The position numbers were made by a program, and so were the translations under genes. Below, one piece after another: positions 9,607 through 19,400 of a DNA stretch of 64,000 bases (its first letter is position 1; the number at the start of each line of letters is the position of its first letter). Source of the DNA: Candidatus Helarchaeota archaeon (lineage in GTDB: Archaea; Asgardarchaeota; Lokiarchaeia; Helarchaeales; RDOG01); contig JAHPZH010000009.1 of assembly GCA_019058315.1 (NCBI GenBank), positions 128,001 to 192,000 on the forward strand, given 5' to 3'. The notes beneath the pieces are model-generated. The model saw only the letters and a program-made list of their open reading frames with translations, made no database searches and had not been told where the DNA came from.

Positions 9607-10419
9607 TTAGGGTAGGTATTGAAATAATTCTTTCGATTTTTCTAATGTAATCTCAACACATTTTATAATTTCGTCTTTAGTAAAAATACCTTCTCTACCT
9701 TTTTGTATGCTACAAATATTTCCAGATTCATCTACTGTAATTGTAATGCGTGCATCCATTATGCGATCCTCTTGTTCATTTGGATCAACCAGCAATTTAT
9801 CTCCTATCTTTGCTATTGTAACTGAAACTGCTTTATTGGAAAATGGGAGGGATAACCAATCTGCTTTTTTGTATTGTTCACCTAAAACTTCCACTTTATT
9901 ATCAACAATCTCAGTCCTTGGCATTTTTGCAGAAAGTAAAGCTGCCACTCCTGCTAATGTTCCCGCATCAAACATATTTCCATCATAAGATAAAACATAT
10001 AAATCAATAAAAATGATAAAAACTTGTTCGCCAGGAATTAAGCATAATTTAGAATAATCTACTATTTCTGAATGACGAATTCCTCTGTCAACTACACGTG
10101 CAACCTCAACAGAATCTTCATTTGGTGGTCCTGGTTCGAATATAGGGGATGCAAGAGCTGTAAGCTCGGCATTAACAGTGATTACTCCCCTATCAGGAGT
10201 ATCTGGAAATGGAGGTCCAAGTGAAATCTTTACACCTGCAATAATATCTGTATTTCCAATTTTAACACGTGCTGACCCCTCAGCTTTTAGTATTACATCT
10301 GTCTCTACAGATATTTTTCGATAATCTAAAAAATTCCTTCCGTCTATTCTCTGATCCTTTTTTACTAGAGAATTTATATGAGATTTTTCAATTTCAGAAA
10401 TAATTTTAAAAGATTCCAT
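9607..10419 (-). CDS. rrp42: Exosome complex component Rrp42
   Basis: RIDGR..LDYR, AEGSARV, PFPDTPDRG, FEPGPP, ARVVDRGIR. Confidence 0.96.
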   Translation of the reverse strand: MESFKIISEIEKSHINSLVKKDQRIDGRNFLDYRKISVETDVILKAEGSARVKIGNTDIIAGVKISLGPPFPDTPDRGVITVNAELTALASPIFEPGPPNEDSVEVARVVDRGIRHSEIVDYSKLCLIPGEQVFIIFIDLYVLSYDGNMFDAGTLAGVAALLSAKMPRTEIVDNKVEVLGEQYKKADWLSLPFSNKAVSVTIAKIGDKLLVDPNEQEDRIMDARITITVDESGNICSIQKGREGIFTKDEIIKCVEITLEKSKELFQYLP

Positions 10420-11233
10420 TATATATCCTCCTCCTTTGATATTTCAGTTTCAATTTCTTTATCAAGTTGACTATATTTTCCCTTTATCGTCTGAATTTGA
10501 ATTTCATTTAATTTTTCAATTCCTTTTTCAGCAATATCCAAGGCTTTACGCATTTCATCAAATGTTATTTGACCATCAAATTGCAAAAGTGTATATGATT
10601 TAGATCGTGGCATCATTGCAATTGGTAAATCTCCCAAACCTTCTTTATCTTCAACATCCGATAAATCTAGAACTAATGTGGGTGGATCAGGATTTGCAAT
10701 TTTACCTACTGCTACACCACAAACAAGGTCGCGTAATGATATTCCAGCATCCGCTAGAGCTAAAGAAGCCGCAGTAACCGCAGCACAACGTGTACCACCA
10801 TCTGCACAAAGGACTTGGATAAAAACATCTATTATAGTTTTTGGATAATATTCAAGAAATATTGATGATTCCAAAGCTTGTCGTAAAATTAGCGAAAGTT
10901 CGACTTCCCTTCTAGATGGGGCAGGAGATTTTCTCTCATCTACTTTATTCCAAATTATTCACTCGGTATAATTTAAGCGAACGTAGCCATGCGATAAAGT
11001 ACTCGCAAAACTGCCGCATCTTGACGGGCTAAATGACGAGGGTGAACTTCACGTGGTCCATAAACTGCGACCAAAATTTTATTCTTTCCCATATTTATTA
11101 AAGCAGAACCATCTGCTTTTGTTAATAATCCCATCTCCATTGAGACTGGTCTTAATTCATCATATTTCCTATTATCTGTTCTTATTCCATCCCTAATTAA
11201 CCAATCAGCTGGGACTTGTTTAAAAAGTGCCAT
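10419..11233 (-). CDS. rrp41: Exosome catalytic subunit Rrp41, two exons: complement(join(10419..10944,10977..11233)), 260 aa
   Basis: Exon 1 ends ...AVYGPREVHPRH...YRMATFA; exon 2 continues VDERKSPAPSRREVELS...ADGGTRCA. Joined length 783 nt, in frame. Confidence 0.93.
10945..10976 (-). other. 32-nt BHB intron in rrp41 mRNA
   Basis: CTAC-GTTC-GC^T-TAAATTAT...ATAATTTG-GAAT-AA^A-GTAG: 4-bp outer helix, 4-bp central helix, two 3-nt bulges, 8-bp inner stem. Confidence 0.9.
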
Positions 11234-11288
11234 AATTATCACCTTTTTATATATTTTTTTAATTCATATCTAAATTTCGATTTTCAAT

Positions 11289-18306: not shown

Positions 18307-19400
18307 ATGGTAAAGACTGGAATAATATATCATGAAGATTATTTAAAACATGATACTGGAGATCATGTTGAAAATAAAAAAAGATTGATTGCCACTTTGG
18401 ATTTATTTAATGAATACAAAATTTTTGAGCATCCTAATATCATTAAGATTTCCCCAAATCCAGCATCTATTAAGGAAATTCAAAGAGTTCATAAAGCATT
18501 TTATATAGAAAAAGTCCGGGAAAAATGTTTAAGTGGTGGGGGCTGGCTTGATGCTGATACAATTGTCTCTCCAGATAGCTACAATGTTGCATTATTAGCT
18601 GCTGGAGGAGCAATACAAGCAGGTGAGATGGCTGTAAAAGGTAAAATTGACAATGCTTTTTGTTTAATACGTCCTCCAGGACATCATGCCGGACCAGGGG
18701 TTGCTAGAGGATTTTGTGTATTTAATAATATTGCCATTGTTGCAAAATCTTTAATTGCGAGGTTTGAAGAGGTCAATAAAGTCTTAATATTTGACCACGA
18801 TGCACATTAAAAAAGAAATTTTCTTTTTTAAGCATATACGCAGGTAATGGAACCTCGCAAATTCTATATAACGATCCAAATGTGCTATTATTTGATTTTC
18901 ACCAACATCCGCGAACACTCTATCCTGGAACAGGTTATATAGATGAAATAGGTGAGGAAGAAGGAAAGGGATATAATATAAATTTACCTATGGTTCCCCG
19001 TGCTGGTGATGCTCAATATCTAGAAGTTATTGATGAATTATTCATTCCAATTATTAATCAATTTAAACCTGATATTGTTCTAGTTTCAGCAGGATTTGAT
19101 ACTCATTTTTCTGATCCCATTACACAACTCAATATAACAATTCAAGGATATGGAGAAATCGTTAAAAAAATAAAAAAAGAGGCAAAAAAAGTCTGTGCTG
19201 GGAAAATTATAATTATGCTTGAGGGTGGATATGATTTAAAAGCACTATCTCAGGGAATTCTAACTGAAATATCTGTACTTGGAGATTTAGGTATTGAATT
19301 TATAGAAAATCCTCCTAAAATTGAAGAAGCTATAGTAGATTACAATAGAAAAATGATAGATAAATTAAAAGAAGTTTTAGGTGCTTATTGGAAATTTTAA
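18307..19400 (+). CDS. HDAC/AcuC-family Zn-dependent deacetylase, two exons: join(18307..18805,18838..19400), 353 aa
   Basis: HVENKKRL, RPPGHHA, GFCVFNN, spliced DHDAHAGNGT, YPGTG, SAGFD, LEGGY. Joined length 1062 nt; GAGGT before ATG 18307. Confidence 0.92.
18806..18837 (+). other. 32-nt BHB intron in deacetylase mRNA
   Basis: CG-ATGC-AC^A-TTAAAAAAGAA...TTCTTTTTTAA-GCAT-AT^A-CG: perfect 4-bp central helix, two 3-nt bulges, 11-bp inner stem. Confidence 0.9.

What the first reader, a model, noticed from the sequence alone, without database searches (positions are those of the whole stretch)
18806..18837. BHB intron sits inside the codon of a Zn-ligand histidine of an HDAC-family deacetylase
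Sequence: ACCACG ATGC AC^A TTAAAAAAGAA ATT TTCTTTTTTAA GCAT AT^A CGCAGGT. Splicing rebuilds CAC and gives DHDAHAGNGT, the family's DxH(x)GNGT metal-binding motif. Unspliced mRNA stops at DAH*, losing the SAGFD and LEGGY motifs. The gene heads a probable deacetylase-tgtA-Sm3-thermosome unit. Inference: splicing could act as an on/off switch for deacetylase activity.
Basis: partly seen in the sequence, partly recalled or inferred. Interest (0 to 1): 0.88.

Follow-up and report, generated by a model that had tools for sequence, protein, structure and literature searches.

The report
tRNA-type intron splitting a deacetylase gene
A 32-base insert shaped like the introns normally cut out of tRNAs interrupts a zinc-dependent deacetylase gene of an Asgard (Helarchaeota-like) archaeon, and comparison with relatives shows it must be removed from the messenger RNA; this kind of intron has been confirmed in only one other archaeal protein gene (cbf5), but nothing shows that it acts as a regulatory switch.

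Summary
Window 18806-18837 is a 32-nt insert inside the codon of His167, the zinc-ligand His of the DxDxH motif, in an HDAC-family gene (18307-19400). Together with its flanks it folds as a textbook hBHBh' motif, and this is the unconstrained minimum-energy fold (z about -4).

- **Excision:** Cutting after the second nucleotide of each bulge gives a 353-aa protein. It aligns without gaps to uninterrupted orthologues and carries the same DHDAHAGNGTS motif.
- **Relatives with the intron:** Three metagenomic relatives have it at the same site, at 30-32 nt, with loop and bulge changes and one base pair dropped from both arms of the inner helix.
- **Relatives without it:** Two close relatives lack exactly these bases (GATGCACAY|GCAGG).
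- **Selection:** In the intron-bearing lineages the codons just downstream are under strong purifying selection (dN/dS 0.06-0.09).
- **Machinery:** The genome encodes EndA alpha and beta subunits and RtcB.
- **Other cases:** My own genome scan found the same kind of intron in rrp41 (same window), RNase Z and an HTH-CBS gene. This scan had already reported such introns on other pieces of this genome (RNase Z, PAC2 and others).
- **Not supported:** No RNA data exist. The on/off-switch idea has no support: the intron is a young, lineage-specific gain, one of several in unrelated genes. The proposed HDAC-tgtA-Sm-thermosome unit is only a local gene order.

The parts
18307..18805 (+). Exon 1 of the HDAC-family deacetylase gene (residues 1-166 plus the first base of the His167 codon)
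   Evidence: It matches Pfam PF00850 profile positions 1-152 at E = 1.8e-37. The start at 18307 is preceded by a conserved GAGGT; the start codon is ATG here and TTG in relatives.
18794..18799 (+). 5' strand of the outer helix h (ACC, unpaired A, CG); exon sequence
   Evidence: In the minimum-energy fold it pairs with 18839-18840 and 18843-18845.
18800..18803 (+). 5' strand of the central 4-bp helix H (AUGC); exon sequence
   Evidence: It pairs with GCAU at 18832-18835. It is identical in L039 and L041.
18804..18806 (+). 5' bulge ACA; predicted 5' cut after 18805
   Evidence: It is a 3-nt bulge in the minimum-energy fold. The rule that the cut falls after the second bulge nucleotide follows from the tRNA 37/38 geometry described in PMC4090602.
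18806..18837 (+). The 32-nt BHB intron
   Evidence: Exactly these 32 bases are missing from the intron-less relatives L044 and L045. L041 has a 32-nt version and L039/L040 a 30-nt version at the same site.
18808..18810 (+). In-frame UAA that ends translation of unspliced RNA after ...DHDAH
   Evidence: It is conserved in L039 and L041.
18807..18831 (+). Inner hairpin h' (11 bp, loop AUU at 18818-18820)
   Evidence: L039 has 10 bp, with one base dropped from each arm. The loop varies between relatives: AUU, AUA, GAA, AUG.
18832..18835 (+). 3' strand of the central helix H (GCAU); intron sequence
18836..18838 (+). 3' bulge AUA; predicted 3' cut after 18837
   Evidence: The bulge is UUA in L041.
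18839..18845 (+). 3' strand of the outer helix h (CG, unpaired CA, GGU); exon sequence
18838..19400 (+). Exon 2 (last two bases of the His167 codon to the stop codon), carrying GNGT, SAGFD and LEGGY
   Evidence: It matches PF00850 profile positions 154-295 at E = 5.3e-48. Among intron-bearing lineages dN/dS is 0.11-0.21 over the exon and 0.06-0.09 for its first 45 codons.
10945..10976 (-). A second 32-nt BHB intron of the same kind, in rrp41 (exosome RNase PH). It belongs to the same phenomenon, not to the HDAC gene.
   Evidence: Found by my own scan. The two halves match PF01138 profile positions 1-59 and 64-129. L045 has a 29-nt intron at the same site with a different inner helix.

Best explanation
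Window 18806-18837 is an archaeal bulge-helix-bulge (tRNA-type) intron in the pre-mRNA of an HDAC-family, zinc-dependent deacetylase of a Helarchaeota-like Asgard archaeon.

Proposed mechanism:
1. The transcript folds so that exon bases AUGC pair with intron bases GCAU. Two 3-nt bulges flank this 4-bp helix, an 11-bp intron hairpin stacks on one side, and a short exon-exon helix lies on the other.
2. The heteromeric (alpha-beta)2 splicing endonuclease EndA cuts after the second nucleotide of each bulge.
3. RtcB joins the exons, and the 32-nt intron is probably released as a small circle.
4. The joined mRNA has CAC (His167, zinc ligand) and encodes a full 353-aa enzyme. Unspliced RNA yields only a 167-aa fragment that ends at an immediate UAA.

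The intron is a recent gain in one genus-level lineage. It is one of several such micro-introns that have entered protein genes of this genome. It most likely persists because it is spliced efficiently, not because it regulates this gene.

Shown here: the geometry, the exact boundaries, conservation of the structure, selection on exon 2, and presence of the enzymes. Inferred: cleavage and ligation in vivo, and constitutive splicing.
For: 1. Geometry. The minimum-energy fold is a strict hBHBh' in the window and in two relatives, with z about -4.

2. Boundaries. Excision gives a 353-aa protein that aligns without gaps to 13 uninterrupted orthologues. The motif DHDAHAGNGTS is identical in the nearest ones. 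At the DNA level, the close relatives L044 and L045 read GATGCACAT|GCAGG and GATGCACAC|GCAGG and lack exactly the 32 bases. Intact relatives are 353 aa long.

3. Conservation with structure-preserving change.
- L039 and L040 have a 30-nt intron with one base removed from each arm of h' (10 bp).
- L041 has loop AUU changed to GAA and bulge AUA changed to UUA.
- Contigs from two further sediment metagenomes span the intron; they carry a loop change, and one carries a 2-nt deletion.
- The central helix and the bulge positions never change.

4. Selection. Among intron-bearing lineages, dN/dS is 0.11-0.21 for exon 2 and 0.06-0.09 for the 45 codons right after the intron. Synonymous divergence is high (dS 0.6-1.5). 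No start codon lies within 14 codons of the exon 2 boundary.

5. Length. The intron is 30 nt in some relatives and 32 nt in others, so no single frameshift or readthrough fits all of them. Only excision does.

6. Machinery. The genome has EndA alpha (Tyr, His and Lys present), EndA beta (no catalytic His) and RtcB. Asgard archaea are reported to have (alpha-beta)2 EndA with the L1 loop, which is linked to broad substrate range (PMC5829648).

7. Other cases. The same genome has BHB introns in rrp41, RNase Z and an HTH-CBS gene. I found these independently, and the Pfam profiles continue across the break.

8. Not a repeat. The intron sequence occurs only once in the genome.
Against: - There is no RNA evidence: the spliced junction and the excised intron have never been observed.
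- The outer helix is weak (2 bp, an internal loop, then 3 bp), so this is at the relaxed end of the motif.
- In archaea ribosomes can follow the polymerase closely. A ribosome terminating at the UAA would cover and melt the motif, so efficient splicing needs to outrun translation. This is untested.
- Whether splicing is constitutive or modulated cannot be told from sequence.
Confidence: 0.8

Rival explanations
1. Regulatory switch. The intron is spliced, but splicing efficiency is modulated, for example by EndA or RtcB activity, temperature, or competition with translating ribosomes. Active deacetylase would then be made only under some conditions, and otherwise only a truncated 167-aa fragment.
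For: - Unspliced RNA gives a product without the third metal ligand and the catalytic Tyr.
- A stop codon lies one codon into the intron here, and within 1-2 codons in the three other mRNA introns I verified.
- A terminating ribosome would overlap the motif, so kinetic competition between splicing and translation is conceivable (inference).
Against: - Nothing gene-specific supports it. The intron is absent from the sister lineages L044 and L045 and from the orthologues in all 60 related genomes searched, although the enzyme is conserved there.
- Similar introns sit in unrelated housekeeping genes (rrp41, RNase Z, HTH-CBS), which points to a genome-wide tendency rather than HDAC control.
- The fold shows no alternative structure or ligand-binding element.
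- An early stop is fairly likely by chance in an intron this AT-rich.
Confidence: 0.12
2. Dead gene. The hairpin is an inert insertion, or a small mobile palindromic element, that inactivated the deacetylase gene.
For: The insertion causes a frameshift and an in-frame stop inside an essential motif. The genome has other PF00850 paralogues.
Against: - Both halves remain under strong purifying selection across three lineages that all carry the insert (dN/dS 0.06-0.21 at dS 0.5-1.5).
- There are no further stops or frameshifts in any copy.
- The insert occurs once in the genome and is not a repeat family.
- It has exact BHB geometry, which an arbitrary insertion would not keep through indels.
Confidence: 0.03
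3. Split enzyme. The two halves are translated as separate polypeptides that assemble into an active deacetylase.
For: Gene callers predict two ORFs in every intron-bearing assembly (167 aa plus 137-172 aa).
Against: - Exon 2 has no start codon for 14 codons here. The ORF called in L039 starts about 49 codons in, which would drop the conserved AGNGT metal-site loop.
- Yet those first 45 codons are the most constrained part of the gene (dN/dS 0.06-0.09).
- No Shine-Dalgarno-like motif or spacer is evident.
- The break lies inside a codon of a metal ligand.
Confidence: 0.03
4. Translational recoding. The ribosome bypasses the hairpin (as in phage T4 gene 60) or shifts frame.
For: A stop codon directly followed by a stable hairpin resembles the gene 60 take-off site.
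Against: - There is no matching take-off and landing codon pair that would land in the right frame. Landing on the downstream GCA or CAT gives the wrong frame or a stop (read).
- The insert is 32 nt in two lineages and 30 nt in another, so neither a fixed frameshift nor a readthrough works for all.
- The conserved features are the 4-bp helix and the 3-nt bulges, which matter to EndA and not to a ribosome.
Confidence: 0.02

Closest known systems
cbf5 pre-mRNA intron of Crenarchaeota (Desulfurococcales and Sulfolobales; Watanabe 2002, Yoshinari 2006, Yokobori 2009 = PMC2738675)
   Same: - It is a short BHB intron inside a protein-coding sequence, removed by the tRNA splicing endonuclease.
- The host has a heteromeric (alpha-beta)2 EndA.
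- Distribution among relatives is patchy, with gain and loss.
- Gene callers misannotate it as two ORFs or a frameshift.
   Different: - The gene is different (an HDAC-family deacetylase, not a pseudouridine synthase) and so is the phylum (Asgard/Helarchaeota-like, not Crenarchaeota).
- It is one of several such introns in the same genome, whereas cbf5 is the only confirmed case in its hosts (PMC2738675).
- Splicing here has not been shown experimentally.
[quoted passage not shown]
   Same: - The hBHBh' geometry and the size class are the same (tRNA introns are mostly 12-25 nt, up to 129 nt).
- The predicted enzymes are the same.
- Repeated lineage-specific gains occur at sites able to form the motif.
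   Different: - The host RNA is an mRNA. The intron must therefore be removed with single-nucleotide accuracy to keep the reading frame, and it competes with translation.
- The preprint covers tRNA genes only and does not discuss introns in protein genes.
Unconventional cytoplasmic splicing of HAC1/XBP1 mRNA in eukaryotes (Ire1 cleavage, ligation by tRNA ligase or RtcB)
   Same: It works in a similar way: a short intron in an mRNA is excised by a protein endonuclease at stem-loop sites and sealed by a tRNA-type ligase, which changes the reading frame. In that system the splicing really is a regulatory switch. This comparison rests on established knowledge, not on a test done here.
   Different: The endonuclease (Ire1) and the recognition motif are different. 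Regulation there is well documented, and none is shown here. There is no evidence of common descent.

Membership tests
Archaeal bulge-helix-bulge (EndA-type) intron | Central 4-bp helix flanked by two 3-nt bulges on opposite strands | tested here: met
   AUGC pairs with GCAU, with bulges ACA and AUA. This is the unconstrained minimum-energy fold in the window, L039 and L041.
Archaeal bulge-helix-bulge (EndA-type) intron | Flanking helices h (outer) and h' (inner) of at least 2-3 bp | tested here: met
   h' has 11 bp (10 bp in L039). h has 2 bp, an internal loop, then 3 bp, which is the weak or relaxed end of the range.
Archaeal bulge-helix-bulge (EndA-type) intron | Cuts after the second nucleotide of each bulge give a functional, colinear mature RNA | tested here: met
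   The spliced frame is 353 aa and aligns without gaps to orthologues. Intron-less relatives lack exactly these bases. The cut rule is taken from PMC4090602.
Archaeal bulge-helix-bulge (EndA-type) intron | Host encodes the splicing endonuclease and the RtcB ligase | tested here: met
   Two PF01974 genes are present (an alpha with Tyr/His/Lys and a beta without the His), plus PF01139 RtcB at 582 bits.
Archaeal bulge-helix-bulge (EndA-type) intron | Spliced junction and excised (circular) intron observed in RNA; cleavage by EndA in vitro | not testable with these tools
   No RNA run holding this sequence was listed.
HDAC / acetoin-utilisation (AcuC) / acetylpolyamine amidohydrolase superfamily (Pfam PF00850) | Full-length match to the Hist_deacetyl domain | tested here: met
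   The two exons match profile positions 1-152 and 154-295 of 298, at E = 1.8e-37 and 5.3e-48.
HDAC / acetoin-utilisation (AcuC) / acetylpolyamine amidohydrolase superfamily (Pfam PF00850) | Catalytic His pair, the Asp-His-Asp zinc ligands and the catalytic Tyr | tested here: met
   After splicing the protein has G125-H126-H127, D165, H167, D254 (in SAGFD) and Y298 (in LEGGY). The C-terminal ...DHDAH of exon 1 aligns with ...DWDVH of HDAC6 in solved structures. That the last His of this motif is a zinc ligand is established knowledge of the family. The natural substrate is not determinable here.

The most novel reading that the evidence does not exclude
In this Helarchaeota-like lineage, tRNA-type micro-introns have spread into many protein-coding genes: HDAC, rrp41, RNase Z and HTH-CBS verified here, and others noted by the scan. 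EndA/RtcB splicing of mRNAs would then form a genuine extra layer of gene expression. Each intron begins with an immediate in-frame stop, so unspliced RNA is harmlessly terminated. Competition between splicing and translation, or changes in EndA/RtcB activity, would set the output of a whole set of housekeeping genes, including this deacetylase.
Probability: 0.15. Interest if true: 0.85.

Novelty: new member of a known kind. Interest (0 to 1): 0.62.

Why it matters
Endonuclease-spliced introns in archaeal protein genes have been confirmed for one gene only (cbf5), and only in Crenarchaeota. Here there is a well-supported case in an Asgard archaeon, the group closest to eukaryotes.

- **Dated history.** The gain or loss can be dated, because both intron-less and intron-bearing close relatives are available.
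- **Multiple cases in one genome.** It occurs alongside at least three other such introns in the same genome.
- **Link to tRNA introns.** It suggests that whatever process loads Asgard tRNA genes with introns also reaches mRNAs. This bears on how introns arrive and persist when there is no nucleus to separate splicing from translation.
- **Annotation.** Such genes are currently called as two fragments or as pseudogenes, so protein inventories of Asgard genomes are slightly wrong wherever this occurs.

Tried and rejected
- **RNA evidence.** No RNA holder was listed for window 18307-19400 with kind any or kind rna, so expression and splicing could not be examined.
- **DNA runs.** Laying contigs of four DNA runs showed the intron in two independent sediment metagenomes and no intron-less joint. 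The run that may be the source of this DNA gave no cover of the site.
- **Pattern scans.** A scan for the exon-intron-exon signature found nothing in genome contigs. In metagenome contigs it found one unrelated, GC-rich chance match (L043).
- **L042 / P0003.** This relative diverges before the intron site and was not informative.
- **Repeat or mobile element.** The intron and its flanks occur once in the genome. blastn-short gives only A/T-rich partial hits.
- **Genome-wide census.**
  - With relaxed structure rules the BHB-plus-frame-restoration scan is dominated by gene-to-gene junctions. It gave 285 loci with 3/3 bulges against 264 and 268 with control 2/2 and 4/4 bulges.
  - Only strict filters give an excess: 8 against 2 and 2.
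  - I therefore give no total count. I report only the four cases where motif, frame and homology all agree.
- **Gain versus loss.** The gene tree places L039 outside a group made of (window, L041) and (L044, L045), with 88/91 support. The AU test does not reject the intron-bearers forming one clade (p = 0.195). A single gain, or a gain followed by one precise loss, both remain possible.
- **Operon idea.** tgtA was not found within 1.5 kb of the HDAC orthologue in any of the 29 loci from more distant relatives.
- **Literature.** Three full-text searches found no paper on BHB introns in Asgard protein genes. This covers only the library that was searched.
- **tRNA genes in the window.** ARAGORN found none with default settings.

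Full report
**What is there**

The window is G000 contig C10:128001-192000. The genome is 5.8 Mb, 30% GC and archaeal. The nearest named homologues of the gene studied are labelled Candidatus Helarchaeota.

An HDAC-family ORF starts at 18307. It is preceded by a GAGGT that is conserved in relatives, where the start codon is TTG. The ORF stops at TAA 18808-18810, right after ...DHDAH. The rest of the domain continues from 18838 in another frame, down to 19400. The two pieces match Pfam PF00850 at profile positions 1-152 and 154-295. One domain is therefore broken at a single point.

**The structure**

The 32 bases between the two pieces (18806-18837), together with their flanks, form a bulge-helix-bulge motif:
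- an exon-exon outer helix (ACC.CG with CG..GGU);
- the 4-bp helix AUGC/GCAU;
- 3-nt bulges ACA and AUA on opposite strands;
- an 11-bp inner hairpin with loop AUU.

This is the unconstrained minimum-energy fold. Its energy is -11.6 kcal/mol against -3.8 for shuffles (z = -4.0).

In pre-tRNAs the first two anticodon bases lie in the 4-bp helix and the splice site is at 37/38. The cut therefore falls after the second bulge nucleotide (PMC4090602). Applying that rule removes 18806-18837 and joins C|AC into the His167 codon. The result is a 353-aa protein with G-H126-H127, D165, H167, D254 and Y298. Exon 1 ends ...DHDAH, which aligns with ...DWDVH of HDAC6 in solved structures. By established knowledge of the family, the last His of that motif is a zinc ligand.

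**Is the excision real?** Four lines of comparative evidence bear on this.

1. Orthologues.
   - Orthologues in 60 related genomes are uninterrupted, with open frames of about 356-400 aa.
   - The spliced product aligns to them without a gap.
   - It shares DHDAHAGNGTS exactly with the nearest ones.

2. Split copies in closer relatives. A search with the N-terminal half alone found two clusters of proteins of exactly 167 aa, at 83% and 76% identity. Their contigs are L041 and L039/L040; L039 has the same gene order as the window. All carry an insert at the same nucleotide.
   - L041 has 32 nt, with loop GAA instead of AUU and bulge UUA instead of AUA.
   - L039 and L040 have 30 nt because one base is missing from each arm of the inner helix, leaving 10 perfect pairs.
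   - All three fold into the same motif.
   - Contigs of two further sediment metagenomes, about 97-98% identical to the window, span the intron. They carry a loop change (T18820G), and one carries a 2-nt deletion. No intron-less joint was seen.

3. Intron-less close relatives. Two other close relatives are L044 and L045, both with the same gene order as the window and with proteins 72-75% identical to the window's. They have an intact 353-aa gene. At the site they read GATGCACAT|GCAGG and GATGCACAC|GCAGG, which is exactly the predicted spliced sequence.

4. Selection. Among the intron-bearing lineages dN/dS is 0.11-0.18 for exon 1 and 0.11-0.21 for exon 2. It is 0.06-0.09 for the first 45 codons after the intron, which lie upstream of any usable start codon. 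Synonymous divergence is 0.5-1.5. That stretch is therefore translated in the exon 2 frame even though a stop lies upstream of it.

Because the insert is 30 nt in some relatives and 32 nt in others, neither a frameshift nor a stop-codon readthrough can explain all copies. There is also no matching take-off and landing codon pair for ribosomal bypassing. Excision at the RNA level is the one mechanism that fits everything.

**Machinery and context**

The genome encodes:
- an EndA alpha subunit with the Tyr, His and Lys catalytic residues;
- a second EndA paralogue that lacks the His, i.e. a beta subunit;
- RtcB.

Asgard archaea are reported to have the (alpha-beta)2 enzyme with the L1 loop, which is linked to broad substrate range (PMC5829648).

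tRNA genes here are heavily interrupted, as recently described for some Asgard classes (bioRxiv 10.64898/2026.10.13.758758).

My own scan of the whole genome looked for BHB geometry combined with restoration of a long open frame. It ranks the HDAC site first. Before I consulted earlier notes, it also turned up a second 32-nt intron in rrp41 in this same window (10945-10976, minus strand). A later, relaxed run found a 33-nt intron in an HTH-CBS gene (C5:499169-499201) and a 29-nt intron in RNase Z (C6:64108-64136). Pfam profiles continue across the rrp41 break (positions 1-59 and 64-129), and the HTH_3 match is cut at position 28 of 55.

The rrp41 intron is also present in L045, at the same site and with the same central and outer helices. 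There it is 29 nt long with a completely different inner helix. It is absent from five genomes of the same order.

Earlier notes of this scan report the same class of intron on other pieces of this genome (RNase Z, PAC2, EF-2 and others). I re-derived only the four cases listed above.

**History**

The five close HDAC sequences form one clade among Helarchaeota-like homologues. The maximum-likelihood tree would require a gain followed by one precise loss. However, the AU test does not reject the three intron-bearers forming a clade (p = 0.195), so a single recent gain is equally acceptable. Either way the intron is young and lineage-specific. It occurs once in the genome and is not a repeat.

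**What is not supported**

The on/off-switch idea rests only on the fact that unspliced RNA gives a truncated product. Against it:
- sister lineages manage without the intron;
- equivalent introns sit in unrelated housekeeping genes;
- no alternative fold or sensor element is visible.

I rate it at about 0.12. Its one suggestive feature is shared with the other three verified introns: an in-frame stop within 1-2 codons of the 5' splice site. That is a post hoc observation on four AT-rich introns.

The HDAC-tgtA-Sm-thermosome arrangement is close-packed (gaps of 39, 25 and 17 nt) and is shared by L039 and L045. In the 29 loci from more distant relatives, tgtA is not next to the orthologue. It is a local gene order, not a demonstrated unit.

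**Novelty**

In the literature I could search, splicing of an archaeal pre-mRNA by EndA is confirmed only for cbf5 of Crenarchaeota, with other cases merely predicted (PMC2738675). I found no paper on such introns in Asgard protein genes. This is therefore a new, well-supported member of a known kind, in a new gene and a new phylum. It belongs to a cluster of cases that deserves an RNA-level test. No RNA data were available.

Noticed in passing
window 10945-10976 (minus strand), inside rrp41 (10419-11242): A second 32-nt BHB intron splits the exosome RNase PH gene rrp41. Splicing gives ...YRMATFA|VDERKSPAP... The same site in L045 holds a 29-nt intron with a different inner helix. rrp41 is uninterrupted in five same-order genomes.
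   Followed up: yes
G000 C5:499169-499201 (+) = L047 1670-1702; G000 C6:64108-64136 (+) = L048 1609-1637: Two more BHB introns lie in protein genes of the same genome. A 33-nt intron sits in an HTH_3-CBS regulator (...GVSQSLIAR|IETGSV...). A 29-nt intron sits in RNase Z (...LLFDCGE|GTQLQF...).
   Followed up: partly
the four verified mRNA introns (window 18808-18810; window 10972-10974, minus strand; C5 and C6 sites above): In all four, unspliced translation meets an in-frame stop within 1-2 codons of the 5' splice site. My rough estimate of the chance expectation is about 0.004. This is post hoc and based on n = 4.
   Followed up: partly
L044 3338-3973 (minus strand): In this intron-less-HDAC relative, cofC is called as two ORFs (123 aa and 85 aa) separated by a same-frame TGA. 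I did not examine it for a BHB motif or for recoding.
   Followed up: no
G000 C3:627504-631783: A dense array of about 20 tRNA genes, many with one or more introns by ARAGORN. ARAGORN found only 42 tRNA genes in the 5.8-Mb genome, which suggests that more interrupted ones are hidden.
   Followed up: no
whole genome G000: The genome is 5.8 Mb, against 3.5-4.7 Mb for the same-order relatives searched. Both mRNA introns examined (HDAC, rrp41) are restricted to its close clade.
   Followed up: no
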